From IMG/VR virus record IMGVR_UViG_3300045988_162015: a stretch of 19,956 bases of DNA; one strand, 5' to 3'. This stretch comes from a virus. A program made the position numbers and the translations under genes. This document shows positions 2,735 through 19,956 of the stretch, one piece after another. The notes under the pieces were generated by a model. It saw only the letters and a list, made by a program, of their open reading frames with translations, did no database searches and was not told where the DNA came from. How positions within the stretch are numbered: position 1 is the first letter of the stretch; every line of letters starts with the position of its first letter.

Positions 2735-2766
2735 ATATTATATCTCCTTTTTCACATAATAAAAAA

Positions 2767-2798: not shown

Positions 2799-2942
2799 CT
2801 TATCAATAAGTTCATCCTCTGTAAGAGGAATTTTATTCTCTTTTTCTTGAGAATTTTTATTTTCTTTTTTTGATTTTTTAACTATAACTTTTTCTACTTC
2901 AGATGCTTTAACAGGTCGTGGAGCATTAGAGCTAATAATCAT
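2778..2942 (-). CDS. Small Lys/Glu-rich protein of 54 aa: MIISSNAPRPVKASEVEKVIVKKSKKENKNSQEKENKIPLTEDELIDKIIKGEG.
   Basis: Its ATG overlaps the upstream TAA (TAATTATGA). It has no SD of its own, so translational coupling is possible. Its TAA stop lies in the loop of the 2769-2790 hairpin. Confidence 0.35.
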   Translation of the reverse strand: MIISSNAPRPVKASEVEKVIVKKSKKENKNSQEKENKIPLTEDELIDKIIKGEG

Positions 2943-2944
2943 AA

Positions 2945-4036: not shown

Positions 4037-4115
4037 AGGTTATTTCCTCCTTAATAAAATTTAAATTTTATTTATATAACTCGCTACAAAAATTAGTAAA
4101 GCGATTTATACAAAA

Positions 4116-5440: not shown

Positions 5441-5461
5441 TCTCCGTTTTCTCCTTCATCT

Positions 5462-6457
5462 TTAAAATAAAGATTCAACTACAATGGTTTTACATTCTGG
5501 CCCATAGAATAAATCAAACTACCCACAGTAGGTAGTTTCCCATCGTAATTTTAAAGTATTTGTTTCTTCATTTACTTTAACTGTTAATGGTAATTTTTTA
5601 TCCCAAGTCCATTTACCAGAGTTAATTCCATCATATTTATATTCATATACTACTTTAGGTTTAATAAAAGTATCACCTATAATACCATTTTCTTTACCCT
5701 AATTAGGATCTTGAACCGGCTATATTAAACCGTTAACAATGCCATTATCAATATCATCAGCAGTTTCATTAGAATAATACTCGACAGCATTAATTTCAAT
5801 TATTCCAGGAGTAGAATACAAATCAGTAGCTTCAATACGCCAACATGTTTTATTAGGGTCATTCTATAAATAAAATTTATTATAACGCTAACATAATTTT
5901 ACATTATCATCATTATAAGGTAATAATATATTTAAAGAATGATTAGGTGTATCTATACTAATTTCATGCTTTTGGATGTAATTAATTTTAGTTTCAACAG
6001 GACCGCGCAAAGCTACATAAGTTTTATGATAATTTTTATTTTCATCTTCCCAAGCAATTTCATAAGAACAACGTCTTATATTGCCACGAAAATAAGCTAA
6101 TTCAGTTAAATCCTGTAAATAAATTAACCAATAAGTATTCGTACCTAACCACTAAAAAATATCCCCAGTTTTAAAATTACTTTCAAAACCAATTGAAATA
6201 ATTTTTTCATCATAATCCTATTTTGTTTTATCAGGGTTAATTAATGCACGACGTTCAATAGTATCTTTATCATCATATAATTTTTTTACCAAGGCAGCTT
6301 GATAAGAATAAAGTAAAGCTCTACTTAATGTTTTACGTTTATCTCTTATCATTCGTTCTTGCTGTCCTGTTACTCCATCACCATATAAATATCTTGTAAG
6401 CATATTGGCTTTTGGAATACGATTATACATTGCATCTAAATATTCATTTTTACTCAA
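5462..6457 (-). CDS. Hypothetical structural protein of 331 aa. TTG start and 7 in-frame TAGs.
   Basis: TTG at 6455-6457 follows AAGGGGG. The frame continues from track ORF 6218..6457 through TAG 6218, 6152, 5888, 5864, 5720, 5699 and 5519 to TAA 5462-5464, which sits directly before the next gene's SD. Confidence 0.5.
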
Positions 6458-6743
6458 TGTGAAGCCCCCTTAATAAAGTAATAGCTTCAAACACTGTTTT
6501 TCTATAAATAGGAAATTCAATTTCGATATTTTTTAATCCCTCTAATTTGCTTAAAAGAATTAAATACTAACTATCATTAAAAATTTCTCCAAGACCGGTT
6601 AATTCAATAATTACAGTATTTAACTAAGATATCCAATCTTCTTCATTTTCTCTCATAGGAATTAATTTCCATATCTAATTAGTGAGTCTATTAATATTAG
6701 TATTAATTAAATTATTGTCTATATCAAAATTATATTTAGTCAT
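6450..6743 (-). CDS. Hypothetical head-tail joining-type small protein of 97 aa with 3 in-frame TAGs.
   Basis: ATG at 6741-6743 overlaps the upstream stop (GATGACTAA). AGGGAGG lies 8 nt upstream. Stop TAA at 6450-6452 overlaps the TTG start of the next gene. Confidence 0.5.
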
Positions 6744-7347
6744 CAAGGGCGCTTACCTCCCTTAGAACAGACCAATTGGATTTAATATATCCATCATCAT
6801 CAGTTTTACGACGTTTATATAATCTCTACATATGAAATGCCTGACGTCTTACTTCTGTTCTCAATGATAACAATTTCTACATATGATTAGCCTATGAAGT
6901 AAATTTAAAATCTGTTCCAGAATATTTCATTCTTGTTACTTCGATAGATGCCAATTGACGTTCCACCCAAGCTTCAACCATGATTAAAGCTAAGATATTA
7001 ATTTCTTCATCATCTAAATCGGCATTAAAATAGGAGGTATTTTCCTCAGAAAATATCTCCTAAAAAGCATTATCTATATCAATATTACTACCAGCTACTT
7101 CTTCAGACAAATCTCCACCTAATGGTATATCAATATCTCCGCCATCAATCTCTCCTTTTATAAAATCAGGAGCATCTTCATCTATTAAAACGTAATCTAA
7201 TCGTTTACGCGGAAATTCAAATCCAGGAATACTATCAACAAGTAATTGGCGTAAATCTAAAAATGTATCACGAGGAGTAAGTTCTAAATACATATCATCT
7301 GTTACTTTGCCTAAAAAACGTTCATAAACTTTATAAAAATATGTCAT
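6736..7347 (-). CDS. Hypothetical protein of 203 aa, head-tail connector/adaptor candidate, with 4 in-frame TAGs.
   Basis: ATG at 7345-7347 follows AAGGAGGG. Track ORF 7060..7347 continues through TAG 7060, 6892, 6877 and 6826 to TAA 6736-6738. Confidence 0.55.
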
Positions 7348-7369
7348 ATAAAACCCTCCTTATTTATAA

Positions 7370-7936
7370 TTAACCTTCTTTTACAACATTATAACGAGGA
7401 GCAGTTCTACGACCAGGAGGCGTTGTGGGCTTAGTTTCAGTCTTCACTCTACGTTCAGGAGCTTTTGGAGTAATCTGTTCATCCTCCGCAGCTTCAGCTT
7501 CCTTATTAGCTAATGCTCTATCAAGGTCAAATCCAGTTTTATCTTTAAGAGCTTTACGCTTATTGTAATCACTCATAGGAAGAGATACAGCATAACTCTT
7601 AATCATATCAATAACTCCAATAGGAGCAAAATCAAGGCAGTCAAGGAATTCATCAAGAGTTCCTTCAGTAAGAAGCTTAATAACTCCAGCATCATCTAAA
7701 TAATATTCAGGTTCTGTATGAATACCTAATTCTTCTGTAGTTTCAGTATCCACAATCTTTAAGAAATTTTCCATTAAAGTGCGGCCTCCGCTAAGATAGG
7801 CAAGTTTCTCTAATTCCTCAAAAGGAATTTTCTTAGTTTCTCCAGGTGTAAATTCTCTGCGGATACCTTCTTCAGGAATAGTATAAACAACCATTCCAGC
7901 ACTTCTATTAGTAACTAATAAAATTTTTTTAACCAT
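7370..7936 (-). CDS. Hypothetical head-associated protein of 188 aa with no in-frame TAG.
   Basis: The likely true start is the ATG at 7934-7936 (MVKKILLVTNRSAG...), with AAAGGAGAAT upstream, rather than the track's 7993. Stop is TAA at 7370. A hairpin terminator lies upstream. Confidence 0.6.
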   Translation of the reverse strand: MVKKILLVTNRSAGMVVYTIPEEGIRREFTPGETKKIPFEELEKLAYLSGGRTLMENFLKIVDTETTEELGIHTEPEYYLDDAGVIKLLTEGTLDEFLDCLDFAPIGVIDMIKSYAVSLPMSDYNKRKALKDKTGFDLDRALANKEAEAAEDEQITPKAPERRVKTETKPTTPPGRRTAPRYNVVKEG

Positions 7937-7967
7937 TTTTTTTATTCTCCTTTTACTCATAAAACAA

Positions 7968-8003
7968 AATAGGGGAGAAGGGGATTTCCCCATTCTCCCC
8001 TAA
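7968..8003 (-). terminator. Hairpin terminator after the capsid gene (GGGGAGAA...TTCTCCCC with inner GGGGA/TCCCC) plus a U-rich tail.
   Basis: aggggagaaggggatttccccattctcccc. Confidence 0.55.
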
Positions 8004-8036
8004 AAATATTATATATTAATTTTTAGTTAATATCAA

Positions 8037-9173
8037 TTACGGCTTATCTTCATTACCGCCATCAATAGTATCATGAGAACCAGTAATCTGACCAGCATAG
8101 TCACGGACCTTACCAGTTACGCCATCAAGATGCCATGTCTTCATATCACCAAGAAGTTCAGTATCACAATAGCAGCAGATGTTATTAGCTAACATAGCAA
8201 TAACGCCAACTTTCTTATAAACCTGAATTTCACGACTACGATCATAATTGGTATATTCATCAACAATGGTATTGCCTTCCATAGCAACCTTTACAGGCTT
8301 ACTATCAGCACCAGTAGGAATAATCCAAGCATAACCTGGGTCAATGACTTTCTTTTCATTAGTAGCATCTTCAAAGCCCTGCTCAAGAATAACAACTTTA
8401 TAGCCCTTATAGGAAGCAAGACGGCCAGTATTCCAAAGCTCATTTTTCATAGCTTCAGTATAACGCCAAGCATCCTTCGGAATCATACGAACAGCAAATT
8501 CATAAGTGCAATAAATAGTAGGAGTACCATAAGCAGAAGCAATCATAAGTAACTTATCAAAACCGGGTTCATCAAAACCATTAGCAACTAAACGGTTAGC
8601 AGGAGGTAACTGGTTAACAGAAGCCTTTAAAGCACCGGCAATTTCTTTATAGATAAGTTCATCCATACCTTCCATGACGATCTGGGTAACAACACCAAAA
8701 TCGACACGGCCATCAAGGAATTCCTCAAAGCCAATTTGAGCAGCTCCGCCGATAGCGCTTGTGCGGACTTCAAAGCTTTCTTCAGTCTTACCAAGCTTGA
8801 ATACTTCATAGATACCAGCTAGGCCGACACGAGTGATGAATTGCTTTGCGCGAGTATTGTTGCTGAACTTTCTACGGAAAATAGGCTTGTCACCCTGTTT
8901 AAACGTCTTAACTTCAGCAAACTGATTATATTGCTCTTCAACTTTCTTAGGAAGAACTTCATCAATAGTTTCCTCAATCATCGAGAAAATAAGGTTCTTA
9001 TTATCACGATATAAAGAATAAGTTCCAGCAAGTTCATTTAATTCTCTGCGGAGAGTTTCATTAAGAGCATCATAAGAAAGGCTTTCGCCATTAAAGCTGT
9101 AAGCAGTAGGAGTAGAAGGATCAGCCTTAGCGACAGTCTTCATTAATTGAACAAGATTTTTTCTATCTAACAT
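8037..9173 (-). CDS. Major capsid protein candidate of 378 aa, free of TAG codons.
   Basis: An intact track ORF with an AAAGGAGAGAAG SD. It lies between the scaffold-like gene and a strong terminator. Size and sequence style resemble HK97/T7-fold coat proteins. Confidence 0.6.
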   Translation of the reverse strand: MLDRKNLVQLMKTVAKADPSTPTAYSFNGESLSYDALNETLRRELNELAGTYSLYRDNKNLIFSMIEETIDEVLPKKVEEQYNQFAEVKTFKQGDKPIFRRKFSNNTRAKQFITRVGLAGIYEVFKLGKTEESFEVRTSAIGGAAQIGFEEFLDGRVDFGVVTQIVMEGMDELIYKEIAGALKASVNQLPPANRLVANGFDEPGFDKLLMIASAYGTPTIYCTYEFAVRMIPKDAWRYTEAMKNELWNTGRLASYKGYKVVILEQGFEDATNEKKVIDPGYAWIIPTGADSKPVKVAMEGNTIVDEYTNYDRSREIQVYKKVGVIAMLANNICCYCDTELLGDMKTWHLDGVTGKVRDYAGQITGSHDTIDGGNEDKP

Positions 9174-9190
9174 TTTTCTTCTCTCCTTTC

Positions 9191-9967
9191 TTACGCGATT
9201 CGCATAATCTTAACGCCCTTCTGATGATCAGGCATTTCATAAACCTTGACAACCTACCATTGGATAGAGCCATCACCAGATTTAGAAAGCATACCATCAG
9301 CAGCACGAGGACTTAAAACATCGCCAACTACAAGAGTAGCTTCGGCAATAGTATTAGTCGTAAAAATATCACCAACGTTGGTCTTGAAAACACGAGGAAC
9401 CATATTAGTGCCAGCAGGCATTCTACGGGCCTCATAAGGACCATCAAAATGTAAAGGATCTTCTTCATAGAAGAGTTCACGAATATCAGGACCAGCAGTG
9501 ACATCATCATACTCATAAGTATGTTGTACACCCTGACTATCTGTAATAGTCATAGAAGTATTACCTTCGGCATCCTTGCCGTTTAAATAGCGAGCCTGAC
9601 GTGTACCAATTTCCTGCTTGCCATCATAGGGGCTGTAATAACGAGCCTGATAATCATCTTTGCGCATAGCAAATTCGCAATCAGCTTGTTCCTCACGATA
9701 AAGTTTAATTTCATTATAAACTAACATCCATTCGCCCTTGCCAGTGAAATCAACTTCACCAAGCTCACCAGCAGCATAGTCATACTTAACAAACTGGCCA
9801 TTTTCAAGAAGCTGGATATTTCTGTTAGCAGGTAATTGAGCATAAATCTGACCAGTGCGTTGAGCACTTAAATGATTAGGCTCAACCTGACCATAGCCAT
9901 ATTCAACGTAGCCGCCCTTAACAGCAGATACGCCGCTTAGGTCTTTAAGCATATCTTTTAAAAGCAT
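9191..9967 (-). CDS. Hypothetical head protein. Track ORF 9254..9967 (237 aa) would gain a 20-aa extension if TAG 9254-9256 is read through, ending at TAA 9191-9193.
   Basis: ATG at 9967 follows AAGGAGG. After TAG the same frame reads QVVKVYEMPDHQKGVKIMRIA, then TAA. Confidence 0.5.
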
Positions 9968-9991
9968 TAGGTTTTCCTCCTTAAAAATTTA

Positions 9992-11557
9992 TTATTCCAT
10001 AGTTTTCGCAACATCCTATACTGCCTTAATCCAAGCAGGAATGCTATCGTCATTTACATCATTATTAATATTATATGTAAGTGGGTCATTTTCTTTCTTT
10101 TCATTAGTATCGAAATTGACCTTATTGCGAACACAGATAATAGAAAGCTTTGCTTCAATATCATCTAATGAATAAGTATCAATATTAGCAACAACATCTT
10201 TCTTATCATCATCAGATAACATATAGAAACTATTAATCATTTCTTGTTTCTTTTCTCTTTCAGCCTCAGTCTTAAACTGAGTTAAAGAAGCAAGTTCTTG
10301 TTCGAGTTGTGTTTGCTTTTCAACTAATTCATTATATTTAGTTTCAAGCGCGGCGTACTCGTCTTTTAATAAACCATATTCAACTATATCTTCCAAAGAG
10401 TACTTAGCTTTCTTTTTCTTTTTTTTCTCTTCGTCATCCTCAGTTGGTTCTTCTTCTTCATCAGAAGTATCAGTTGGTTTATTTTCGGGAGTGTCCTTCT
10501 TTTCATCATCTTTTGGCTGATCTTTAGAAGGATCTTCCTTATTATTATCATTATTCTCTTTATTGTCTTTATCTTTTTCGTCCTTTTTTTTCTTCGCAAA
10601 TTCTGCGACTTTTTCAGGATCGAATTGAGGATTATCAGAAACAGAATAATCAGTTAATTCAGAAACTTCACCAGGAGTGAAAGTATCATTCTCCATAGAA
10701 AAATCTAAACGAACGAACTTATCATCTTCCTTGACAATAGCAAATAAATTACCATTGTCTTCGCAAACTTCTTCAATCATTGCATTACCTGCTCCGAAGC
10801 CCTTAATGTAAGAATAAAGAGAAGTCCAAATGGAATCACCAATCTCCACACTATATCTTGTGAACACTTTTGTTCCTCCTTTACCTTCTAATAATTCTTT
10901 TAAATCTTTCATCATAGAGAATAATTGCTCATTAAATTTATCACTAAATGAGAAATGCATCGTAGGAGCAGTAATATTAGCTCCTTCAAAACAAGGTTCA
11001 CAATCTTCTCCAAGAATACAAAGTTTCTTAATTATTGCTTCATTTATAATAAAAAATTCGGGCATTCCATTCTTATCTTTCGACCAATACGCATTAATTT
11101 TTTCATCATCTAATTCCATAGATTGATTATTACCTTTTTCAATAATACGTTTACTTTCTGGATAGATATCTGTCCAGATATAGCCTTCAGTCATTAAATA
11201 TTCATGCTCGTTTTTTCCATCATCTAAAAATTTCTAAAACCATACTTTGGCTCCCAAGTCTACAAAACCATAAGGAACAGTAGTATCTTTAATATCAAAT
11301 TTACCATTAGAAATATCAATAATACGATTATGTTCTTCATAATCCCCATTGACTTCATTAAAATAACCAACGATAGGACTACCTGGTAAACTTTGCGCTA
11401 AATCTTTAGCAACTTCTTTTGTTATAACACTTCTATTGCGATTTGGTTTATCACCAACATAACAAACTTTAATCTAACATTTAGAAATTAAAGGATTGAT
11501 TTTAGTGATATTAATAAACTCAACAGGAGTATCTAACTTAACACTTGTATGTCTCAC
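9992..11557 (-). CDS. Prohead protease/scaffolding-like protein of 521 aa. It has a GTG start, a long D/E/K low-complexity coiled-coil C-terminal half, and 3 in-frame TAGs.
   Basis: GTG at 11555-11557 sits 7 nt after AAGGAGG. The frame is continuous into track ORF 10016..11194 through TAG 11474 and 11234, then through TAG 10016 to a TAA TAA double stop at 9992. The N-terminal region is globular. The C-terminal part is KKKKDEKDKDNKENNDNNKEDPSKDQPKDDEKKDTPENKPTDTSDEEEEPTEDDEEKKKKKK plus coiled coil. Confidence 0.5.
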
Positions 11558-11569
11558 TATAAATCCTCC

Positions 11570-13258
11570 TTATTTACCAGCCGCTTGACGATTAGCGATT
11601 GTTTTTTCACTCTTTTCATCATTAGCTTTTTCTGGCCGACCGCTTTCTTTAGTTTCTGTTTTTACAGTAGTGGCATTTCCACTTGTTTTATTTTGAGAAG
11701 TGTTAGAACTATTCTAATCTTTTTTACCCAAAATATCTTCACCATTTAATGTAGAACTCATAAGAGGCGGTATCATAACTTCACTTAAATGTAGAACTTC
11801 ATTTTCAAAATGAGCTGTATTAAGAATAAAACTCTATGACTATCCAAGAGCAATCTAAGGTAACATTTTAGAGAAACCAATCTAAGTTTGCTCTTTATAC
11901 ATCTTAGATAAATCTTTATAATTATACTATGTAGTTTCTAACATATAGAATTTATAATTATATTTTTTCTAAACATTCAGGACTGATAATATTCTATCAA
12001 AAAATATGTTGAATTGCAAAATTAAATTACGCATGGTAGATTCATCATCTAAGATAGACTTTTCCAACGCAATATTGCCATCTGTATTAAATAAATTGCG
12101 CGAAACGCCAAATGCATTATATACGGTTCGTTCAACACGCTCTAATTCATCTGTGGTAGCAGAAGTATTTTTATCAGAAGTATCAATAGCATCTACATCT
12201 GCAAAAGTAGTTAATACATCAACACCTACAGCTCTACGCAACATTTCAACAGCATTATTATGAATATCACGAGCTTCATCAATATCAAAAATCAAATCAC
12301 CATTTTTATCAAGTGGTAATTTCTAAACTAAAATCTTTAATAATTTTTGCATCTACTTGCGGCGGTCTAAATCTTGTGCAGCATCTAAATCCAAAATTGC
12401 TGGAATAGCATTTACAAATAATGGAATATCATTAGTACCATTTAAAGCAAACTTAATAGTGCTTTGTGGATCTAATAAATACCAACTACCAGTATTATCA
12501 CCAGCTACATCAGGTAAAAGTTTACCAGCCTTATAGAGACGATAACCTATTGTAAATTCATCAGGAAATAATTTTAATACTCTATTACGGTAATTAGTAT
12601 CCACAAAAGTATCAAAGTATCTCATATCAAATTCAATAGCAGGTAAATTACCTACTGAATATCTTGAACGACAATACTCAATAGGAAGTTGCTATAAAAT
12701 TAAACCAGTACTTGAGGGAACAATATAGGCATAATAAGCTCCACATTTGATAACTTCAAGAGCCATATCGCCACAAATTTTCTTAATATAAGAATTATCT
12801 AAATAATTTAAAATTCGCCAGAAATCTTTTACTGCTTTTGTTTCATTAATATCTTTAACAGCAGAACCGTCAGTATTATTAGACTAAATAGCAATAGCCC
12901 AATCATAACGATACATATTCGCAAAATAATTACATACTCTTTGATAAATACCGCTTACTCTAAAAAAGAAACGTGATATTCTTCGCAATTCTTGAATATC
13001 ATTACGAATTAAAGCATCCATAACCATGGGCTTTGTATAAATACGTTCACGGCTATACTTTTCATTGCGGCGACCGTAAGTGTCCCATCTGAAAGATCCA
13101 AGATTTAAGACAGCATCGTCTAATGTCTTAACACCAACCTTAATCTTCTTATATTCATTTGGGCCAACTGCAGAATACTCACGTACTCCTCCAGTTATGT
13201 CAAAACCTTTTTTATGTATCTATTCATTTCTGGTTAATTCTTCCTTTTCTAATTCCAT
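11570..13258 (-). CDS. Portal protein candidate of 562 aa with about 11 in-frame TAGs.
   Basis: ATG at 13256-13258 follows AAGGTG. One frame joins track ORFs 12353..12625 and 11969..12295 through TAGs at 13220, 12692, 12353, 12323, 11969, 11927, 11882, 11855, 11840, 11834 and 11714. Stop TAA at 11570-11572 directly abuts the next gene's SD. Size and its position between terminase and scaffold fit a portal. Confidence 0.6.
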
Positions 13259-13275
13259 ACTTCACCTTCTTTCAA

Positions 13276-13632
13276 TTAATATCCAGCTTTTCGCATTATA
13301 TAATCATAAGAAATTAAATTTTCTTCTGTATAAGGAATTTCTATTAAATGTAAATCATGTAAAGCACAGAATCTACGTTTTTGATTATCATTATATTGCT
13401 ATTGATATAATCCACGTTTTCCACCAAATTTATTACTGGCTTCATAATGCTATTTCCCTTGATATTCAATTAAAAAATCAATATTATTATCATCATCAAA
13501 TATAACAAAATCAAAACGTAAAGGACGACCATTATGTGTTTTTAAATCTGGAAATATATATTCCATCTTAAAATTCAGGCCGGCTTCCTCTAAGATTTCT
13601 CTAATCTTAATTTCCGCACGACTGGCATCCAT
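13276..13632 (-). CDS. Small DUF559/Vsr-like (PD-(D/E)XK-type) endonuclease-fold protein of 118 aa with 2 in-frame TAGs.
   Basis: ATG at 13632 follows AAAGGAGA. Track ORF 13450..13632 continues through TAG 13450 and 13399 to TAA 13276. The motif ...FDFVIFDDDNNIDFLIEYQGKQHYE...QKRRFCALHDLHLIEIPY resembles the iEvDGxQH ... R...L...G..vlRf signature. Confidence 0.45.
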
Positions 13633-13720
13633 ATATTAAGTCTCCTTTCTTATCTACAAATAAATTCCTCTTATTATTCTTTTAAAAATTAATTTAAAAG
13701 AATAATAAGAGTTGCCCGGC

Positions 13721-15472
13721 TTAATTCATAAACATCCAATCAGCAGCCCGGAATTTTTTCTTCTTTTTATCTTCTTCTATTTTTTTTATATAATATAATC
13801 CATACTCTAATGCAGAGAATTTATCTTTTTTAATACTTTTATTAGCTTGTTTTAAAATTATATTTAAACCTTCATTTTCTTCACGTAGATTCATAATCTC
13901 TTCGCGTAATGAAGTAGTTAAACTGAATGGTCTTAAATAATCAGATCGCGCTTCTGTGGTCATATTCTAGCCCACTTTAGTAGTTAATAATTTCTATTTA
14001 GCAGTTCGTTCATCAATTAAAAATTTAATCTTACCAGAATTTAATACTGACTAAGTAATACTATGTGCTTCAGTATTAATTGGTGCATTAGCTTTCATTA
14101 AGTATAAAACATCTAATTCTGTACTATTGGTTTTATATTTTTTATATTCTTGAACTGCATCATCCTAAGTTCCACCATAAACACCAAAATCAGGAATTAC
14201 TTCAGAAGTTTCAGGATTAATCTGTGGTTTAACCATAAAATCAACTAAACCAACACCAAGTCCATTAGCATCTATTACAATTCTACGAGCTTTATATTTA
14301 TAATATAATTTTTTAAGTTTAATAGCCTAATCTTCAAAATGGGTATCATTCATAGTATAAATATTAACTAAACTTTTAATCGGTTCACCATGCGGTTGCG
14401 GCGTTACTTTAAATACACAAACAACAGTATCGCATCCTTTACGGCCTACGTCAACACTTAATATATAATAAGATAATTTACTTGAACGACCAGAAGCTTC
14501 ATACTCAGGCTAATTCAGTATTCTATTTCTATTAAATATTTCTGCATTAAAGAAAGCGTCTTCAACTGTACCAGACCAAATTGATTCATATTCACGTTCG
14601 AAAGAAGCTTCATTATAAGTTCCTTCATTTTTTTGGTCAGTAATAAATGTTTTCTGCTGTAATCCAACAGCAACAGGAGTTCGCCAAGTTCCGCCTAATA
14701 CCATACATCTATCAGGCTATGTAATCATACGAACTAATAAACCAATTAATCTATCATAAGGATAAGTATTTTTATAGCCAGCAGTAGTAATATAAATCTA
14801 TGATTTATTTACCGCTTCTTCTTCATGAGTTGTACCATCCTTAGCTCTACGAGGAATAGCCATAACTGGTATAATGACTTCGCGCAAAATCTAATCATCA
14901 ATACCTACACATTCTTCCATTAGACCGCCATGACGACGCTGACCACGAGTACTTTCTCTCGCAGCTAAATTATCAAGGACAGAGCCATTCTTAAATACAT
15001 AACGTACTTTATCTTTACTCTCTTGGCTCTTACCTCGACCCCAATCAATTTCACGTTTAAAGCTCGGTATTAAGTCACAAATTTCATTAACTTTGTCATG
15101 TAGAATACTTGCACCTTGTTCCTTACCTCCAGAAGTAACAAATAAATGAACACCAGGATAAAGAATACATCTAACCATTAATGCCATAACTGATAAAAAT
15201 GATTTAGAATAGGCACGAGGGAAAACTGCATAAACATATTGATAGCGCATTACACATCTTAAAAAAACACGCTAATAGAAGAAAAATTTAAATTCTCCTT
15301 CTTTCTATTCTGTACGTGTTCCTCGCACTAAAAAATCAACAAATAAATCTGGATATTCGCGCCAAAAGGCAGTATATTTACGAATGACTGGCATTACGGC
15401 ATTAATACGTTCTTCAGAAAGACCTATTTTTTTTCGGCTTGTAGATAGGTCAAGTAAATCTTGTAACGCCAT
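13721..15472 (-). CDS. terL: Terminase large subunit of 583 aa with 11 in-frame TAGs.
   Basis: ATG at 15470-15472 overlaps the upstream stop (TAATG). It joins track ORFs 14891..15250, 14510..14704 and 13721..13963. A Walker-A-like AVFPRAYSKS is present, plus an RNaseH-like nuclease region (VDVGRKGCDTVVCV...ARRIVIDANGLGVGLVDF) and FEREYESIW. Stop is TAA at 13721. Confidence 0.75.
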
Positions 15473-16686
15473 TAATCTTCTCTATCAGAGAAAGCATCTA
15501 TATCTAACTCTGTCTCATTATCTAAAAATTCACTAAAGTCTTCAATATCTTTATCTTCTAAAGTTTTTTCAATGTCTTCAATAGACATATCAACATCATC
15601 AACAATTGTGTCTTCGACGTTTTCTTTAGCCTATTCATCTTCTTTAGCGTTTTGTTTTAATGCCTAATCAATCATATTGCCAAGATTAGTTTCTCGTTCA
15701 ATTAAAGTACGAGTATATTTCTACATATCTTTAATTGTAAAATCTACTTTATCATTTGGAGTATCAATATAATATCTTTCGATATAGCCTTGTTTCTCAC
15801 ACATTTCTATTAATTCACCAACAGAATCAATGAAATCGCCAGATTCTTCTTTATTCTAGGCAGCAGTAAATTTGCCCGATTTCATTAAAGAATCATACAT
15901 TTTAATCATCTTTTGGGCGCCGTCTACATCACCTATATCTAATAACTAATTAGATTTTAATGATGTCTTACAGGCAAGTTTTAATGTGTCAATATGGCCT
16001 GCAGACTAAATATCGTAAGACTGCATCATTTCATTAAATAACTGCTCTAAGCGCACCCATTCATCAGGGCTATAGCCTTTTCCCCATTTTAAATAAAGAT
16101 ATCGTTTATCTTCGTCTGTCAGCTCTGCACCTAAGTCAGGAACATCAAAATCTAATTTATCTTTAAAATAATCTTCTGCAGAATTCCCAAAATCTAGGGG
16201 AGGAGGTGCAGGAGGAGGTGGCTCTTTTAATTCTTCTGATGGCAAAGCAAATGAAGCACGTTGAATGGCTGTAGTAATATCTTGAACATCATATCCCTAT
16301 TGCTTCATTGTTTCTTCTATTTTTTTATTTTGTAAGTCTTGCAAGAATTGACTATCTTTCCATCTATAATCTTTCCATTGATTTAATTTCATTGCAGAGA
16401 GATAGCGACCTAATATTGTCATTCCAGTGACTTTCGCTCTATCCTTCGCAAATTTACCCATTAACTAATTCCACTAATCAGGAATGTAAGGAACATCACA
16501 TTCTTGCAATATCCATAGATAAGTATCCGGATTCCAATTATCTACATGCATTGTTATACATTTTTTACATTTTGGTAATTTACCATCGTTAGGATATTTA
16601 TCTAAATTATTAGATGTATAAAACTAAGTTCCATCCATAGTTTTATTACATTTTTCACAGTAATATTGTTTACCTTCGCTGGACAA
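15472..16686 (-). CDS. Zinc-ribbon DNA-binding protein of 404 aa with an acidic C-terminus; terminase small subunit candidate by position. About 10 in-frame TAGs.
   Basis: TTG at 16684-16686 sits 8 nt after AAAGGAGA, just past an in-frame TGA. The protein contains CEKCNKT...DGKLPKCKKC and track ORF 16006..16245. It ends at TAA 15472-15474, overlapping the terL ATG. Confidence 0.45.
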
Positions 16687-16704
16687 TCAATATTTCTCCT
16701 TTCT

Positions 16705-17769
16705 TTAGGATTTCATTTTTTCTTTACGAGAACTATTTCGGCATTTTTTACATATACTATAAAATCCATCTTTACTTGTTTTGTTATAGGAAAAATATTT
16801 ATTGTGAGCTAATTTAATTTGCCCACATCGACTGCATTTTTTATATTTGCCTTTTTCTTGAGTTGTATAATACCACTCTAAATATTTATCAACAGCTTTA
16901 TCGGCAATAAGTTTTGGTATTTTATTGCGGAATAAACTTGATATATATTCTAAACTGTGGGTAATATTAAATTCTTCTTGTAAAATTTTTTGAATCTCTA
17001 TATTTTGTAATCCATCAATTTTACATTCTACAATACGCATTAACATAGGATAATCAGCCAAAGCTTCATCACAAATATTTTCAAAATCATAGATAAGATA
17101 CCAAGTATCATCTTCAAAACGGTCCCAACTATCTTCTTTTAACCGAGAATAATTGCATAAGATGCAAGAGCAAATTTCAGGGTTCATCAATGAGACGCCT
17201 TCTGGAATTGGATATCCATCATCATCAAATATTTTTACATCTTCATCTAATTTAATTTTATATTTGGACCGTGTAAGCTTTACTGGTACTATTGGCTTCC
17301 GATAAGCATTTTTAATAACATATTGGTCTTTACGCATTTCTATTAATGCTTTTTTTATAGTGAAAGCATCTTTACCACTCACTACTTTCATTTTTGCTTC
17401 CCAAGTTGTAATAGCGTCTTTTAATTGTTTTAAGCTCGGAATTTCTTCTAAATCTTTTTTTGTAATTGTAACTTTTGGCTAAAATATCATATTTTTATCA
17501 CTATTAATTAAATTATATATACCATCTTCACCATTCTCTAACTGGGAAACAAGTCCTTCGAAAGAAGTTTCACGTTTATTAACTGTCATTAATCTATTAT
17601 CAGTTAATATTTTCTTTTCTTTTTTTTCTTGTTTCTCCATACATAGAATTAGATAATCTGCAAGAATTTCTAAATACTTTTCATTAGGATTTGGATTTTC
17701 TTCTAAGATTTTTTTTACTAATTCATTTCTTTCTTCAGGAGTTTCAAGAGTATAATCTAATTTTATCAA
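16705..17769 (-). CDS. Zinc-ribbon protein. Track ORFs 17479..17826 and 16705..17391 are in the same frame and separated only by TAG 17479-17481, so they are probably one ~355-aa product; two separate genes remains possible.
   Basis: Likely TTG start at 17767-17769 with GGAGG 8 nt upstream. The C-terminal motif CSRCGQIK...DGFYSICKKC is paralogous to the motif in the downstream gene. Stop is TAA at 16705. Confidence 0.45.
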
Positions 17770-17797
17770 GATTAATACCTCCAATCCTTCTAAAAAA

Positions 17798-17826
17798 ATT
17801 ATAACACAAAAAATTTGTAAAGTCAA
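17798..17826 (-). promoter_or_regulatory. Consensus promoter on the minus strand (TTGACT-17-TGnTATAAT) heading the packaging/structural gene array.
   Basis: The reverse complement reads ttgactttacaaattttttgtgttataat. Confidence 0.55.
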
Positions 17827-17880
17827 CCATGGCCAAAAATTTTTATGACATTTGGTAAAAAAATTATATAAAATGTAAAA

Positions 17881-17909
17881 TTGACAATTATAGAAAATTT
17901 TTGTATAAT
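17881..17909 (+). promoter_or_regulatory. Consensus promoter on the plus strand (TTGACA-17-TATAAT) driving the 17939 gene.
   Basis: ttgacaattatagaaaatttttgtataat. Confidence 0.6.
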
Positions 17910-17938
17910 ATTTATATAAAATTAAAGGAGATAATTTT

Positions 17939-18094
17939 ATGAGAAAACCTCGTGGTATTTTAGGTAGTATGGCTTCTAAAGCTAAACGTAGAGCAACTAA
18001 TAGTGCAACTAGAGCTGTTTATCAGCTTATGTGGGGCGAAAACCCTAAACAGCAAGGAGCCTATAATCCTACCAAAGAGCGTAAGAAAAAGTAA
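17939..18094 (+). CDS. Small basic protein of 51 aa: MRKPRGILGSMASKAKRRATNSATRAVYQLMWGENPKQQGAYNPTKERKKK.
   Basis: ATG sits 9 nt after AAAGGAGAT and a consensus promoter lies upstream. It is below the track's 60-aa cutoff. Stop is TAA. Confidence 0.5.
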   Translation: MRKPRGILGSMASKAKRRATNSATRAVYQLMWGENPKQQGAYNPTKERKKK

Positions 18095-18129
18095 ATATAT
18101 TATATTTAAAAATTGAAGGAAGTGATTTA

Positions 18130-18567
18130 ATGAAGTTTGTCCATGGGCTTCTTTTAGGTAGTGGTGCGGTACTTGGATTAGGATGTGCGGCCAGATTTAT
18201 TTATGGTAAAATTATTGAAGCAAAAATCTATAAAGATTATACTGAAGCCCTTGAAGATTTTATGAATTTTAAAAGCGATAAAAAATATATTGAATATAAT
18301 AAAGGGCTAGAAGAAAAATATATTGGGCCTGGAATAGTTCATGTCATTAAAAATAAAAAAGATTTAATGTCTATTGATGTATCTAAATATGAAGGAGAGG
18401 GTGATCCAATTGGCATTACTCTTGGTTCTAAAATTGTAGATAAAGAAGACCAATATATTATACCTGAAGTAGAAGTTTATAAATTTAAAAATGGATATAC
18501 TAATTATCGATTCCATCAAGAACGAGGAGTAATTGACCCTGATGAAGGTATTATTCCTTTTGATTAA
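18130..18567 (+). CDS. Membrane-anchored or secreted protein of 145 aa with a hydrophobic N-terminus (GLLLGSGAVLGLGCAARFIYG).
   Basis: Track ORF with a GAAGGAAG SD. Stop is TAA. Confidence 0.55.
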   Translation: MKFVHGLLLGSGAVLGLGCAARFIYGKIIEAKIYKDYTEALEDFMNFKSDKKYIEYNKGLEEKYIGPGIVHVIKNKKDLMSIDVSKYEGEGDPIGITLGSKIVDKEDQYIIPEVEVYKFKNGYTNYRFHQERGVIDPDEGIIPFD

Positions 18568-18596
18568 TTGACAAAGCACAAAAAATTTTGTAAAAT
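18568..18596 (+). promoter_or_regulatory. Promoter on the plus strand (TTGACA-17-TAAAAT) for the AbrB-like gene.
   Basis: ttgacaaagcacaaaaaattttgtaaaat. The -35 hexamer abuts the TAA of the upstream gene. Confidence 0.5.
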
Positions 18597-18657
18597 AAGT
18601 TATGAAATCTGTGGGATGGCTCGCACTCTCCCAATTAAAAAGAAAGGAGTGAGTTGA

Positions 18658-18858
18658 ATGCTGAAAACAGCTTATACAAGAAAACTCGATACAGTTGGAC
18701 GTTTAATGATTCCTTCTAAACTTCGTGAAGAATTGCATATGGTAAATGGTCATAATTATGAATTTTATATTGACGAAGTAGATGGTAAGACTTTTTTATG
18801 TATTGAATGTCCTGAAGCTAGTGATGCCGTAGCTCTTGCGAAAGAAACATTGGAATAG
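18658..18858 (+). CDS. AbrB/MazE/SpoVT-fold (swapped-hairpin) DNA-binding protein of 66 aa. The stop is TAG; read-through would add QNGYRVIKE and end at TAA 18886-18888.
   Basis: RKLDTVGRLMIPSKLREEL matches the AbrB-N/MazE signature. An AAAGGAGTGAG SD, a promoter at 18568-18596 and a terminator just downstream are present. Confidence 0.6.
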   Translation: MLKTAYTRKLDTVGRLMIPSKLREELHMVNGHNYEFYIDEVDGKTFLCIECPEASDAVALAKETLE

Positions 18859-18889
18859 AATGGATATCGAGTAATTAAGGAATAAAATT

Positions 18890-18921
18890 AAAGCGGGAAA
18901 TTATTTTCCCGCTATTTTTTT
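18890..18921 (+). terminator. Rho-independent terminator (AGCGGGAAA-ttat-TTTCCCGCT plus T9).
   Basis: aaagcgggaaattattttcccgctattttttttt. Confidence 0.65.
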
Positions 18922-18942
18922 TTATAAATTTATTCCGTATTC

Positions 18943-19008
18943 TGAAATTAAAAATGAGTTTAGAAATTATGATCGTTATTTGAAATTAAAATTGAGTTTA
19001 GAAATTAT
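18943..19008. repeat. Two 28-nt near-identical direct repeats (one mismatch) spaced 38 nt apart.
   Basis: tgaaattaaaaatgagtttagaaattat and tgaaattaaaattgagtttagaaattat. Confidence 0.7.
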
Positions 19009-19072
19009 TTTGCCAGGTAGGAAGATTTATCCATTTTTTCCATTTTTTTTACACGAAACCCTGCCCCCCCCA

Positions 19073-19124
19073 CTTCATTTGACTAAAGTGTTAAAGTCTA
19101 TTGTCTTGCTTTATTCAAATGAAG
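19073..19124. repeat. Perfect 10-bp inverted repeat (cttcatttga / tcaaatgaag) with a 32-nt spacer, sitting just past a C8 homopolymer at 19053-19063.
   Basis: Read directly from the sequence. Confidence 0.6.
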
Positions 19125-19181
19125 CAAGTTAGATACGACTAACCCCCTAAAAAAATAATTCGATTTTTTCAAAATTAGTTC

Positions 19182-19209
19182 TTGACTTTTTAGAAATAGC
19201 CGCTATAAT
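19182..19209 (+). promoter_or_regulatory. Promoter on the plus strand (TTGACT-16-TATAAT) with an upstream A-tract.
   Basis: agttcttgactttttagaaatagccgctataat. Confidence 0.5.
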
Positions 19210-19293
19210 TAGAATCAGAAAGTGACCCACGGGACAACGCAAAGCAAGCCGCAAGGCAAGCGAAAAAAAGTCAAGAAAAAATGAAAAAAGTTC

Positions 19294-19322
19294 TTGACAA
19301 ACGAAATCGCGTGTGGTACAAT
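19294..19322 (+). promoter_or_regulatory. Promoter on the plus strand (TTGACA-17-TGgTACAAT, extended -10) with an A-rich UP-like element.
   Basis: aaaaaagtcaagaaaaaatgaaaaaagttcttgacaaacgaaatcgcgtgtggtacaat. Confidence 0.55.
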
Positions 19323-19403
19323 TCAAAATGTCAAGAGGACAACGACAAAACATAGCAAGTTCTCTTGTGTGACGTAAAATGACCGGCAAACGCGGATAGC
19401 ACC

Positions 19404-19494
19404 GAACCGCCTGCACCTTGACAAGTGAATCTAAGCCGAACGCCTGCACCGTACAGCGGACGCGATGGTAGAACATAGCAAGTGCGGTGCAGGC
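19404..19494. repeat. GC-rich repeat cluster in the leader. It has gcctgcacc twice as direct copies, a 10-bp inverted repeat (gcctgcaccg / cggtgcaggc), and acatagcaagt repeated at 19351 and 19473.
   Basis: Read directly from the sequence. Confidence 0.6.
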
Positions 19495-19581
19495 AGTAGG
19501 GCAGTCCAACGCCTACGGCAGACAGCAACACGGACAGCTGACAACTAACAGTCAAATAATATGTAAAGGATTGGTAAAATC

Positions 19582-19956
19582 ATGGTATATGCAATTAAAA
19601 CAAGCGAACAGGACAAACAGAAAGCTATCAAGGCAGAGTTAGCAGAACAGGCACAAGACTTGATAGCATATGTCAAGCAATACCATATTCTAGGCAATAG
19701 CTTCGACTATGATGGTATGCTGGACAAGTATCATGAATATGCGGCGAAGAATATTCAGCAATGGGACAACCTGACATGGGCTATTCATAGTGCTGAATAT
19801 GACTTGGAGCACACGGACTATAACATGGATATGGAAACCGGCAATCCATGTGTCGCATATGAGGCCGCCTACGAGAAGCTGACAGACTTACAGGACGAGG
19901 CCGAGGAATGGGCGGATATCTTTGAACATATGCTCGAAGACTTCTTCTACAAACTG
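19582..19956 (+). CDS. Very acidic hypothetical protein, partial (125 codons, open to the window end). It has GC-richer codon usage and is an anti-restriction or DNA-mimic candidate.
   Basis: ATG at 19582 sits 11 nt after AAAGGA. There is no stop before the window end, so the track omits it. Codons such as GAC, CAG and AAG are favoured, unlike the AT-rich region. It lies downstream of tandem consensus promoters. Confidence 0.5.
   Translation, partial: MVYAIKTSEQDKQKAIKAELAEQAQDLIAYVKQYHILGNSFDYDGMLDKYHEYAAKNIQQWDNLTWAIHSAEYDLEHTDYNMDMETGNPCVAYEAAYEKLTDLQDEAEEWADIFEHMLEDFFYKL

What the first reader, a model, noticed from the sequence alone, without database searches (positions are those of the whole stretch)
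19330..19581. Roughly 250-nt GC-rich, repeat-laden leader between the promoters and the acidic ORF; candidate structured RNA
The leader contains gcctgcacc as two direct copies 34 nt apart. One copy forms a perfect 10-bp stem with cggtgcaggc around a 33-nt loop. An 11-nt repeat, acatagcaagt, occurs twice. The stretch is GC-rich in an otherwise AT-rich context. The minus-strand ORFs the track calls here look like by-products of GC richness. This could be a cis-regulatory leader, a small RNA, or a protein-binding array. I cannot match it to a known riboswitch or T-box family.
Basis: seen in the sequence. Interest (0 to 1): 0.55.

Follow-up and report, generated by a model that had tools for sequence, protein, structure and literature searches.

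The report
Phage leader carrying host rRNA boxA
The 250-base untranslated leader in front of this gut phage's first early gene contains a near-exact copy of the "boxA" signal that its Clostridia hosts use to keep RNA polymerase from stopping inside ribosomal RNA operons, so the phage most likely borrows the host's rRNA anti-termination machinery for its early genes.

Summary
The two direct repeats are not conserved in relatives and are probably incidental.

The region is the 5' leader of the first early operon of a large gut phage (113-190 kb). The phage is TAG-recoded and related to SPbeta-like phages. Twenty-three distinct versions of the leader share one layout:
- two tandem sigma-70-type promoters;
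- a 5' hairpin (H1), kept with five different stem sequences;
- a short hairpin (H2) with compensatory changes;
- a conserved 19-nt block, always 87-90 nt after the -10 box;
- an exchangeable hairpin module, then the ribosome-binding site.

The conserved block (window 19412-19430) matches GAACCTTGAAAAGTGAAT at 16 of 18 positions, and some relatives match at 18 of 18. In Clostridia genomes that 18-mer lies between rRNA promoters and 16S or 23S rRNA. It is therefore the host rrn boxA, and it keeps the NusB/NusE contact bases G2, C5, C6, U7 and U8.

Best reading: a cis-acting, rrn-type, Nus-factor anti-termination leader. Rfam gives no match, and the minus-strand ORFs are composition artefacts. 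I rate it a new variant of a known kind. The same boxA also occurs in unrelated phages and in ICE-like elements.

The parts
18892..18913 (+). Intrinsic terminator-like hairpin followed by a T run, closing the upstream small-gene cluster. It marks the left border of the 720-bp intergenic region.
   Evidence: 9-bp stem, 5 GC pairs, T run. The weak Rfam matches are to terminator parts of unrelated families only.
19182..19209 (+). Promoter P1 (TTGACT - 16 nt - TATAAT) with an A/T-rich region upstream.
   Evidence: 11 of 12 matches. Present in all relatives, although its sequence is partly replaced.
19294..19322 (+). Promoter P2 (TTGACA - 17 nt - TGgTACAAT, an extended -10) preceded by an A-tract (AAAAAATGAAAAAAGT). 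The -35 and -10 boxes are nearly invariant in the 23 variants. It resembles Clostridial rRNA promoters.
   Evidence: Similarity to rrn promoters of L195, L208 and L151: by eye; nhmmer E about 0.006-0.01 against the fetched loci.
19332..19367 (+). H1, the 5'-proximal hairpin of the P2 transcript. Arms are CAAGAGGAC (19332-19340) and GUUCUCUUG (19359-19367), with an 18-nt A-rich loop.
   Evidence: Predicted in all 23 variants at the same place, with five different stem sequences: CAAGAGGAC/GUYCUCUUG, GCAAGGG/CCCUUGC, CAAGGGAAC/GUUCCCUUG, GUCAAG.GGAC/GUCCUUGAC and CGAAACACG/CGUGUUUCG.
19392..19410 (+). H2, a short hairpin ending 1 nt before boxA (GCGG 19392-19395 / CCGC 19407-19410, 11-nt loop). 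It sits where boxB sits in rRNA leaders. An alternative, mutually exclusive pairing is CCGG 19383-19386 with CCG 19402-19404.
   Evidence: Stem variants GCGG/CCGC, GCCG/CGGC, GCUGU/ACAGC, GCUGU/ACGGC, GUCGU/ACGGC and CGGCGU/ACGCCG give C-G to G-C and C-G to U-A double changes. The alternative pairing has one compensatory case, CCAG/CUGG in L055.
19412..19430 (+). boxA-like block TGCACCTTGACAAGTGAAT. The 12-nt core is 19412-19423 (UGCACCUUGACA). It is predicted to be single-stranded.
   Evidence: Two mismatches to GAACCTTGAAAAGTGAAT and the only match in the window. Kept in all 23 variants at 87-90 nt from the -10 box. The 18-mer lies in Clostridial 16S and 23S leaders. Core bases G2, C5, C6, U7 and U8 agree with the E. 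coli and Aquifex boxA (PMC3177189).
19435..19502 (+). It is the 'type A' 3' module of the leader.
   Evidence: z = -5.6. Pairs 19451/19485 (G-C to A-U) and 19454/19482 (C-G, U-G, U-A) change on both sides. The module is replaced by unrelated hairpin-forming modules (types B and C) in L005, L219, L055 and L220-222.
19504..19554 (+). Three small predicted helices: 19504-07/19532-35, 19511-13/19517-19 and 19539-42/19551-54.
   Evidence: One compensatory pair (19504/19535, G-C to A-U in two sequences); otherwise little variation, so support is weak.
19565..19584 (+). Shine-Dalgarno sequence AAAGGA (19565-19570) and the ATG (19582-19584) of the acidic ORF.
   Evidence: Sequence read. Invariant GTAAAGGA in the alignment.
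19582..19956 (+). First gene of the early operon. It is an acidic protein, 134 aa in relatives, and runs off the window end.
   Evidence: 171 homologues, no Pfam domain. Model with four helices (H9-37, H43-57, H59-76, H91-130), pLDDT 86.5, with no significant fold match.

Best explanation
Window 19329-19581 is the untranslated 5' leader of the first early operon of a TAG-recoded, SPbeta-related gut phage. The leader is built like a host ribosomal-RNA operon leader.

Proposed mechanism, in order:
1. Two tandem strong sigma-70-type promoters (P1, P2) start transcription.
2. The P2 transcript begins with a stable hairpin (H1). I infer that this protects the 5' end.
3. Next come a small hairpin (H2) and, immediately after it, a single-stranded copy of the host's rrn boxA.
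4. By analogy with rRNA operons and lambda nut sites, nascent boxA is bound by host NusB-NusE(S10). With NusA and NusG this converts the elongating RNA polymerase into a termination-resistant, Rho-resistant form.
5. That polymerase then transcribes the 150 nt of remaining untranslated leader and the multi-gene early operon.
6. I infer that it is an RNA-level element, such as an RNase III processing or stabilising site or a docking site for a phage factor. It is not the core of the signal.

What is shown: the anatomy, its conservation and covariation, and the identity of the block with the boxA of Clostridial rRNA leaders.
What is inferred: Nus-factor binding, anti-termination, and the roles of H1 and H3.
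For: 1. Anatomy. P1 and P2 each match the consensus at 11 of 12 positions, and P2 has an extended -10. No terminator lies between them and the ORF.

2. Conservation. Across 23 distinct leader variants from viral and metagenome contigs, the order P2 - H1 - H2 - block is invariant, and the block always starts 87-90 nt after the -10 box. This holds in L055, whose first protein is only 30 % identical, and in variants whose 3' half is a different sequence.

3. Identity of the block.
- GAACCTTGAAAAGTGAAT gave 79 loci in the species-representative genome collection, where I estimate about 17 by chance. Almost all are Clostridia.
- Rfam places the 16S rRNA start 109-122 nt downstream of it in L154, L165 and L199, and the 23S start 53 nt downstream in L159.
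- In those loci it follows tandem promoters and a hairpin.
- About 20 further hits point into a contig end less than 200 nt away, as expected for MAG contigs that break at rRNA operons.
- It is 14 of 18 identical to the Mollicutes 16S-23S spacer primer GTTCTTTGAAAACTGAAT.
- Its core UGCACCUU compares with Aquifex GGCUCCUU and, from my own knowledge, E. coli UGCUCUUU. The bases that PMC3177189 singles out (G2, C5, C6/U6, U8) are kept.

4. In the window it is the only match within 3 mismatches (0.04 expected).

5. Variation inside the block in relatives (AAAAGUGAAU, AAAACUGAAU, GACAAGU) mirrors natural boxA variation.

6. Hairpins H1 and H2 are kept through compensatory changes. H3 keeps 99 % pairing, and its one-sided changes are G.U-compatible only on the plus strand. 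This indicates RNA-level selection on the sense transcript.

7. The same 18-mer lies downstream of promoters, or just after a hairpin, in unrelated phage contigs and in integrase/excisionase-bearing elements of Clostridia. That is the expected pattern if mobile elements exploit the host boxA.
Against: - No experiment shows that boxA works in Clostridia or on this leader. The function is by analogy.
- Position 4 of the core is A rather than the U of E. coli and Aquifex, although the host rrn copies share this.
- Three variants (L001/L002, L217 and L224) have A at core position 6. For lambda boxA, transversions at positions 2, 5 and 6 are reported as not tolerated.
- Only one boxA occurs in 20 kb of early region, although several other strong promoters are present. 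In L001 the first intrinsic-terminator-like site of the operon is about 2.4 kb downstream. The need for anti-termination is therefore not demonstrated.
- boxA sits about 60 nt further from the promoter than in most of the host rrn leaders seen.
- The related deposited phage Phass-1 has no match to this boxA.
- The whole leader is not thermodynamically unusual (z = -0.9).
Confidence: 0.6

Rival explanations
1. An ordinary structured 5' UTR. The hairpins only stabilise the mRNA or tune translation of the acidic gene. The boxA-like block is a passenger, for example left over from capture of a host rRNA promoter fragment, with no Nus-factor function.
For: P2 and its A-tract resemble host rRNA promoters, so a captured fragment is conceivable. 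H1 at the very 5' end is typical of stabilising hairpins (my own knowledge). The whole-leader fold is not unusual.
Against: The block is the best-conserved unpaired part of the leader. It is kept at a fixed distance in 23 variants while the flanking stems and the whole 3' half were replaced. It recurs in unrelated phages and ICE-like elements that share no other sequence. There is no extended homology to host rrn leaders beyond the promoter and boxA. All this argues for selection on the block itself.
Confidence: 0.15
2. boxA is functional but not as an anti-terminator. Either it recruits Nus factors to repress the first gene, as at E. coli suhB, or the abundant leader RNA acts as a decoy that titrates NusB/NusE away from host rRNA operons as part of host take-over.
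For: BoxA-dependent repression is documented (PMC5725501). The leader is driven by two strong promoters, so it would be abundant. Only this one operon carries boxA.
Against: At suhB the boxA lies close to the start codon, whereas here it is 150 nt upstream with stable hairpins in between. The promoter - hairpin - boxA layout copies the rRNA leader, where the outcome is read-through. There is no evidence for titration.
Confidence: 0.12
3. A lambda-nut-like site. boxA plus the downstream hairpin H3 bind a phage-encoded N-like protein, which together with Nus factors gives anti-termination.
For: The order boxA - 11 nt - hairpin resembles nut. In relatives the second gene of the operon encodes a 111-aa protein with an N-terminal arginine-rich stretch, MNRINRRTARKEAMM.
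Against: H3 has a 27-33-nt loop, not a small pentaloop hairpin. H3 is swapped for unrelated modules (types B and C) while the Arg-rich N-terminus stays the same. Two type-A leaders (L218 and L223) have a different second gene. No homology to any known protein was found.
Confidence: 0.08
4. An independent small RNA, a riboswitch, or a DNA-level protein-binding repeat array.
For: Stable local structure. Repeats are present in the window. Type B and C modules carry two copies of the palindrome-containing CGCTTGCAAGG.
Against: There are no Rfam matches. No terminator lies before the ORF. The window's direct repeats are not conserved. The 3' module is interchangeable, which a ligand-binding aptamer would not tolerate.
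Confidence: 0.04
5. A real minus-strand protein gene (ORFs 19147-19509 or 19331-19555).
For: ORFs of 120 and 74 codons exist on the minus strand.
Against: All three minus frames are stop-poor in every relative because the plus strand is T-poor. ORF lengths and frames differ between relatives. Indels of 1-2 nt occur. Variable columns show no 3-nt periodicity (p = 0.24). The ORFs would overlap both promoters.
Confidence: 0.01

Closest known systems
rRNA operon leader anti-termination region (boxB-boxA-boxC; rrn anti-termination complex with NusB, NusE/S10, NusA and NusG)
   Same: Tandem strong promoters, then a hairpin, then a single-stranded boxA on the sense transcript. The boxA is identical or nearly identical to the one in the 16S and 23S leaders of Clostridia, and the core contact bases are kept.
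   Different: It precedes protein-coding phage genes, not rRNA. boxA is 87-90 nt from the -10 box, against about 17-35 nt in most host leaders seen (71-78 nt in L195 and L208). An extra 5' hairpin H1 is present and no boxC equivalent was recognised. A long exchangeable hairpin module follows. There is no leader-trailer pairing partner.
Lambdoid phage nut sites (boxA + boxB, N protein)
   Same: A phage early leader just downstream of early promoters that carries a host-type boxA, with a hairpin close by. It is presumably used to carry RNA polymerase through a long early operon.
   Different: The hairpin precedes boxA, as in rrn. The downstream hairpin is large and exchangeable. No N homologue was identified. 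The host is a Firmicute, not an enterobacterium. The boxA is a full match to the host rrn boxA rather than the weakened lambda version (the latter from my own knowledge).
BoxA elements outside rRNA: suhB 5' UTR and CRISPR-array leaders (PMC5725501, PMC7665894)
   Same: A short boxA placed in the leader of a non-rRNA transcription unit, recognised here as in those studies by its match to the species' own rRNA boxA.
   Different: Those are chromosomal genes or arrays, mostly in Proteobacteria, Bacteroidetes and Cyanobacteria. Here the element is on a phage, and in ICE-like elements, of Clostridia.
T7 early region (A1-A3 promoters, long leader, RNase III site R0.3, acidic Ocr as first gene)
   Same: Several tandem strong host-type promoters, a leader of a few hundred nucleotides with a long irregular hairpin, and a small acidic protein as the first early product. 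This comparison rests on my own knowledge of T7; it is a resemblance only.
   Different: T7 has no boxA. RNase III cleavage at H3 is untested. The acidic protein shows no fold similarity to any solved or predicted structure searched, including Ocr if it is represented.

Membership tests
BoxA (NusB-NusE) anti-termination site, rrn type | The sequence agrees with the boxA of the host's own rRNA operon leaders and spacers. | tested here: met
   The window block matches at 16 of 18 positions, and L003, L055 and others at 18 of 18, to the 18-mer found 109-122 nt upstream of 16S and 53 nt upstream of 23S in Clostridia genomes.
BoxA (NusB-NusE) anti-termination site, rrn type | The core bases contacted by NusB-NusE are present (G2, C5, C/U6, U7, U8 of the 8-nt core). 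| tested here: met
   The window core is UGCACCUU, compared with Aquifex GGCUCCUU and E. coli UGCUCUUU (my own knowledge). Only position 4 differs. Caveat: 3 of 23 variants have A at position 6.
BoxA (NusB-NusE) anti-termination site, rrn type | It lies on the sense strand of a transcript, downstream of the promoter and upstream of the unit to be read through. | tested here: met
   It is 89 nt downstream of the P2 -10 box and 152 nt upstream of the ATG, on the same strand, with no terminator between them. The promoters are predictions, not mapped starts.
BoxA (NusB-NusE) anti-termination site, rrn type | An adjacent boxB-type hairpin lies 5' of boxA, as in rRNA leaders. | tested here: met
   H2 (19392-19410) ends 1 nt before boxA and has compensatory changes across variants. 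The host leaders show a hairpin at the same position.
BoxA (NusB-NusE) anti-termination site, rrn type | It binds NusB-NusE and makes RNA polymerase resistant to Rho-dependent or intrinsic termination. | not testable with these tools
   This needs binding assays and reporter or read-through assays.
Lambda-type nut site | A boxB hairpin (short stem, GNRA-like pentaloop) lies a few nt 3' of boxA. | tested here: not met
   The hairpin 3' of boxA (H3) has 17 pairs and a 27-33-nt loop. It is replaced by unrelated modules in types B and C.
Lambda-type nut site | A phage N-family protein with an arginine-rich motif is encoded downstream. | tested here: inconclusive
   In relatives the second gene has an N-terminal Arg-rich stretch. 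It has no detectable homology to anything, and it does not covary with the hairpin module.
Any curated RNA family (riboswitch, T-box, leader, sRNA) in Rfam 15 | A covariance-model match at or near the gathering score. | tested here: not met
   There are no matches at gathering thresholds in the whole window. In 18850-19956, 16 weak chance-level matches (E from 0.056 to 8.9) were listed. None lies within 19330-19581, and the strongest are to the terminator at 18892.
RNase III processing site of phage early mRNA (T7 R0.3 / SP82 type) | An irregular double-stranded helix of about 20 bp in an early transcript, cleaved by host RNase III. | tested here: inconclusive
   H3 is a 17-pair helix with small internal loops, conserved as RNA. 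Cleavage cannot be tested here.

The most novel reading that the evidence does not exclude
Phages and integrative or conjugative elements of gut Clostridia routinely carry an exact copy of their host's rRNA boxA, usually just after a hairpin and a strong promoter. They would thereby load the host rRNA anti-termination complex onto their own early or transfer operons without any N-type protein. This would be an rrn-mimicking, N-independent anti-termination strategy not described for Firmicute mobile elements. As a by-product, the boxA sequence of a metagenomic phage would report its host clade.
Probability: 0.35. Interest if true: 0.6.

Novelty: new variant of a known kind. Interest (0 to 1): 0.5.

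Why it matters
BoxA/Nus-factor anti-termination is textbook for E. coli rRNA operons and lambdoid phages. It was recently extended to suhB and to CRISPR arrays. For phages and conjugative elements of Gram-positive anaerobes, nothing comparable turned up in the literature I could search.

If the leader works as proposed, three things follow:
- It shows how an uncultured, TAG-recoded gut phage secures transcription of its first early operon with host factors alone.
- It gives a simple, testable cis-element for reporter, NusB-NusE binding and mutational work.
- It offers a sequence tag, the host-specific boxA, that could help assign metagenomic phages and ICEs to host clades.

If it does not work that way, the finding is still a well-defined conserved leader architecture with an unexplained copy of a host rRNA signal.

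Tried and rejected
- Rfam: the whole window at gathering scores and the region at E <= 10 gave nothing relevant.
- tRNA and tmRNA scan: none found.
- BLAST of 19000-19956 against the plasmid and phage collections: no match.
- Exact 23-mer of the hairpin in viral contigs: no match.
- Whole-leader folding on either strand: not better than shuffles.
- RNAalifold on a plain MAFFT alignment of the 5' part found almost nothing, because the H1 and H2 stems are shifted between groups. I therefore folded each sequence separately.
- H-type pseudoknot from the two competing pairings around H2: rejected, because the third loop would be 0 nt long (my reasoning).
- Third promoter using the TTGACA inside boxA: no -10 box follows it, either in the phage or in the host leaders.
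- Conserved leader peptide: the window has an ATG at 19328-19330 (a 14-codon ORF), but it is not conserved in the other groups.
- Frpo-like single-strand promoter hairpin from inverted repeat I1 (19174-19191 / 19265-19282): not conserved in relatives. P1 and P2 are instead direct duplicates of one promoter module.
- Function of the acidic ORF: no Pfam, PHROG or significant NCBIfam family and no fold match.
- The second gene as a lambda-N-like protein: no homology, and no co-variation with the leader module.
- boxA in the deposited relative Phass-1: absent at 3 or fewer mismatches.
- ORF-cover test for intergenic location of the viral hits: uninformative, because T-poor leaders create spurious antisense ORFs.
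- Arnvig et al. 2008 (boxA consensus across phyla) could not be read. The statement that Firmicute boxA is TGTTCTTTGAAAACT-like rests on my own knowledge plus the primer sequence in PMC3019172.

Full report
**1. The observation**

The sequence features are real.
- CGCCTGCACC occurs at 19408-19417 and 19441-19450 (D12).
- The second copy pairs with 19485-19494 as a perfect 10-bp stem around a 33-nt loop. With one G.U pair it extends to 13 bp (I14).
- AACATAGCAAGT occurs at 19349-19360 and 19472-19483 (D9).
- GC is 0.47 in 19201-19500, against roughly 0.23-0.36 over most of the window. The leader is markedly T-poor (15.5 % T).
- The 75-nt segment around the stem folds at -35.6 kcal/mol against -21.4 +/- 2.5 for shuffles (z = -5.6).
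- The 252-nt leader as a whole is not unusual (z = -0.9).

**2. Context**

- The minus strand from 1 to about 18018 carries structural genes (capsid-, portal- and terminase-like). They form contiguous ORFs only if TAG is read as sense.
- The major capsid protein is 49 % identical to that of phage Phass-1, which is filed under the 'Caudoviricetes code 15 clade'. It is about 41 % identical to capsid proteins of SPbeta-like Enterococcus phages.
- From 18085 rightwards, small plus-strand genes in the standard code begin.
- The 720-bp intergenic region 18860-19581 holds three elements: a terminator-like hairpin (18892-18913), promoter P1 (19182-19209, TTGACT-16-TATAAT) and promoter P2 (19294-19322, TTGACA-17-TGgTACAAT).
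- The ORF at 19582 is the first of a run of small early-type genes. In relatives it encodes a 134-aa acidic protein. This protein has no Pfam, PHROG or significant NCBIfam family. Its confident model has four helices (pLDDT 86.5) and matches nothing.

**3. Relatives**

- The acidic protein has 171 homologues in metagenomes, many on contigs of 113-190 kb.
- From viral contigs, ENA assemblies and metagenome contigs I collected 28 loci, which give 23 distinct leader sequences. They include a distant one, L055, whose first protein is 30 % identical.
- All share the order P2, hairpin H1, hairpin H2, then a conserved block that starts 87-90 nt after the -10 box.
- Downstream of the block the leaders fall into three unrelated modules:
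  - type A, as in the window;
  - type B, in L005, L219 and L055;
  - type C, in L220-222.
- Each module forms a stable hairpin before a conserved SD.

**4. Structure**

- **H1** (window 19332-19340 / 19359-19367) is predicted in every variant, but with five different stem sequences. The hairpin, not its sequence, is what is conserved.
- **H2** (19392-19395 / 19407-19410) ends 1 nt before the block. Its stem variants include GCGG/CCGC, GCCG/CGGC, GCUGU/ACAGC, GCUGU/ACGGC and CGGCGU/ACGCCG, which are compensatory changes. A competing pairing (CCGG with CCG(G)) has one compensatory case. The two cannot coexist as a pseudoknot, because one loop would have zero length.
In 15 type-A sequences:
  - 99.2 % of cells are paired, against 20-39 % when the partner is slid;
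  - three pairs change on both sides;
  - the frequent one-sided changes (A-U/G-U, U-G/C-G, C-G/U-G) are tolerated only in the plus-strand RNA.
- The structures are therefore real at the RNA level on the sense strand. Divergence is modest, so the support for the small 3' helices is weak.

**5. The key element**

- The best-conserved unpaired stretch is TG[A/C]AC[C/A]TTGA[A/C]AAGTGAAT (window 19412-19430).
- The 18-mer GAACCTTGAMAAGTGAAT also occurs in unrelated phage contigs. There it is typically 21-91 nt downstream of a consensus promoter or just after a hairpin.
- It is 14 of 18 identical to GTTCTTTGAAAACTGAAT, a primer from the conserved part of the Mollicutes 16S-23S spacer. From my own knowledge, this is the Firmicute/Mollicute rRNA boxA.
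- A scan of one genome per species with GAACCTTGAAAAGTGAAT returned 79 loci, where I estimate about 17 by chance. They are overwhelmingly Clostridia.
- In L154, L165 and L199, Rfam places the 16S start 109-122 nt downstream of the motif. In L159 the 23S start is 53 nt downstream. L195, L151, L208 and L147 show the same leader.
- In these loci the order is tandem promoters, hairpin, motif.
- About twenty further hits point into a contig end less than 200 nt away, the usual signature of MAG contigs that break at rRNA operons.
- Only six hits lie in long ORFs, all of them in non-Clostridial phyla, as expected for chance matches.
- The motif is therefore the rrn boxA of (some) Clostridia.
- Its 8-nt core in the window, UGCACCUU, differs from Aquifex GGCUCCUU and E. 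coli UGCUCUUU essentially at position 4. It keeps G2, C5, C6, U7 and U8, the bases emphasised in the NusB-NusE-BoxA crystal structure paper (PMC3177189).
- In the window the block is unique (0.04 matches expected at 3 or fewer mismatches).

**6. Mechanism**

The simplest reading is that this is an rrn-type anti-termination leader.
- P1 and P2 resemble rRNA promoters, including the A-tract and the extended -10.
- They drive a transcript whose nascent boxA recruits host NusB-NusE and the other Nus factors.
- This renders RNA polymerase resistant to Rho and to terminators, across the long untranslated leader and the operon.
- In L001 the operon runs about 2.4 kb to the first terminator-like site.
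- H1 is well placed to protect the 5' end.
- H3 and its type B and C counterparts may be RNase III or other processing or stabilising elements.
- These functional steps are inferences from the established rRNA and lambda systems. Only the anatomy, the conservation and the sequence identity with host rrn boxA are shown.

**7. Caveats and rivals**

Caveats:
- Three variants carry A at core position 6.
- Only one boxA was found per 20 kb of early region.
- Phass-1 lacks it.
- boxA function has not, to my knowledge, been demonstrated in Clostridia.

Rivals:
- a passive structured UTR with a hitch-hiking boxA;
- a repressive or decoy role for boxA, as at suhB (PMC5725501);
- a lambda-like nut site with a phage N-type protein;
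- a small RNA, a riboswitch or a DNA repeat array;
- a minus-strand gene.

On the nut rival: in relatives the second gene has an Arg-rich N-terminus. It has no homology to anything, and it does not covary with the exchangeable hairpin. The minus-strand gene is rejected, for these reasons:
- all minus-strand frames are stop-poor for compositional reasons;
- ORF frames and lengths differ between relatives;
- there is no codon periodicity.

**8. Comparison and novelty**

- Functionally and architecturally the closest known system is the rRNA operon leader. The closest phage precedent is the lambdoid nut site.
- Non-rRNA boxA elements are known at suhB and at CRISPR leaders (PMC5725501 and PMC7665894). 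There they were recognised by the same logic used here, a match to the organism's own rRNA boxA.
- I found no report of boxA in phages or ICEs of Firmicutes in the searchable literature. Absence from that library is not proof of absence.
- The same boxA, usually just after a hairpin, also occurs next to sigma-like, excisionase and integrase genes in Clostridial genomes (L172 and L152). The phenomenon may therefore be general.
- I rate the finding a new variant of a known kind, with moderate interest.

Noticed in passing
window 1-18018, minus strand: The late/structural genes are TAG-recoded. With TAG as sense, the minus strand becomes 16 contiguous ORFs of at least 150 aa, and all 17 such ORFs in the window total 5768 codons. 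Under code 11 there are 8 ORFs totalling 2050 codons. TGA as sense changes nothing. The early plus-strand genes read normally in the standard code.
   Followed up: partly
window 8037-9173 (-): The major capsid-like protein is 49 % identical to phage Phass-1 (OQ749652, 'Caudoviricetes code 15 clade', human gut). It is about 41 % identical to 134-142-kb Enterococcus phages and 26 % identical to SPbeta-like Staphylococcus phages. This points to a Firmicute host.
   Followed up: partly
window 18001-19956 versus 1-17700: There is a sharp compositional switch. GC is 0.23-0.42 with negative GC skew over the late region. GC is 0.41-0.47 with a strong excess of A over T on the early plus-strand side.
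   Followed up: no
window 19060-19128: A C-run (ccctgcccccccc) is followed by a conserved hairpin (19073-19088 / 19109-19124, plus an inner 19105-19115 / 19118-19128) upstream of P1. Relative L003 shows a compensatory G-C to A-T change in the inner stem. Its function is unknown; it could be an operator, a terminator for leftward transcription, or a genome-end feature.
   Followed up: partly
window 18921-18996: Two tandem 38-nt AT-rich direct repeats (74 % identical) lie just after the terminator (D1).
   Followed up: no
window 18658-18858 (+): A 66-aa protein with an MraZ/AbrB-type (SpoVT-AbrB-like) N-terminal DNA-binding domain, PHROG 'antitoxin'. It is the last gene before the promoter region and is conserved at this position in all relatives. 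It is a candidate regulator of P1/P2.
   Followed up: partly
L001 10459-10794 and the equivalent gene in 20 other loci: The second gene of the operon encodes a 111-aa protein with a conserved N-terminal arginine-rich stretch (MNRINRRTARKEAMM) and the C-terminal motif AASRRRWSIATSKQIWL. It has no homologue in Pfam, PHROGs, NCBIfam or the PDB. The resemblance to lambda N's arginine-rich motif is only a lead.
   Followed up: partly
L005, L219, L055 (type B) and L220-L222 (type C), 3' half of the leader: The leader part between boxA and the SD is modular. Two other, unrelated modules replace the window's H3 region. Both contain two copies of CGCTTGCAAGG (with the palindrome CTTGCAAG), which pair with each other.
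   Followed up: partly
L172 about 1680-5600; L152 about 380-4530 (-): In Clostridial genomes the same boxA 18-mer, directly preceded by a hairpin, lies in mobile-element contexts. In L172 it sits between a small sigma-70-region-4-like gene and a toxin-like gene, an excisionase-like gene and an integrase gene. In L152 it lies upstream of HTH/excisionase-like genes and two integrases. I infer that these are ICE- or prophage-like elements using the host boxA.
   Followed up: partly
L065 7240-7500; L082/L123/L133/L137; L135: Unrelated phage contigs, one of them at 52 % GC, show the same style. They have arrays of consensus promoters followed by T-poor leaders that contain the identical boxA and repeated GCAAG(CC) motifs. 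GCAAG also occurs five times in window 19245-19480.
   Followed up: no
window 19174-19191 / 19265-19282: An 18-nt inverted repeat (89 % complementary) pairs the -35 region of P1 with the sequence just upstream of P2. It is not conserved in relatives, where P1 and P2 look like direct duplicates of one promoter module.
   Followed up: yes
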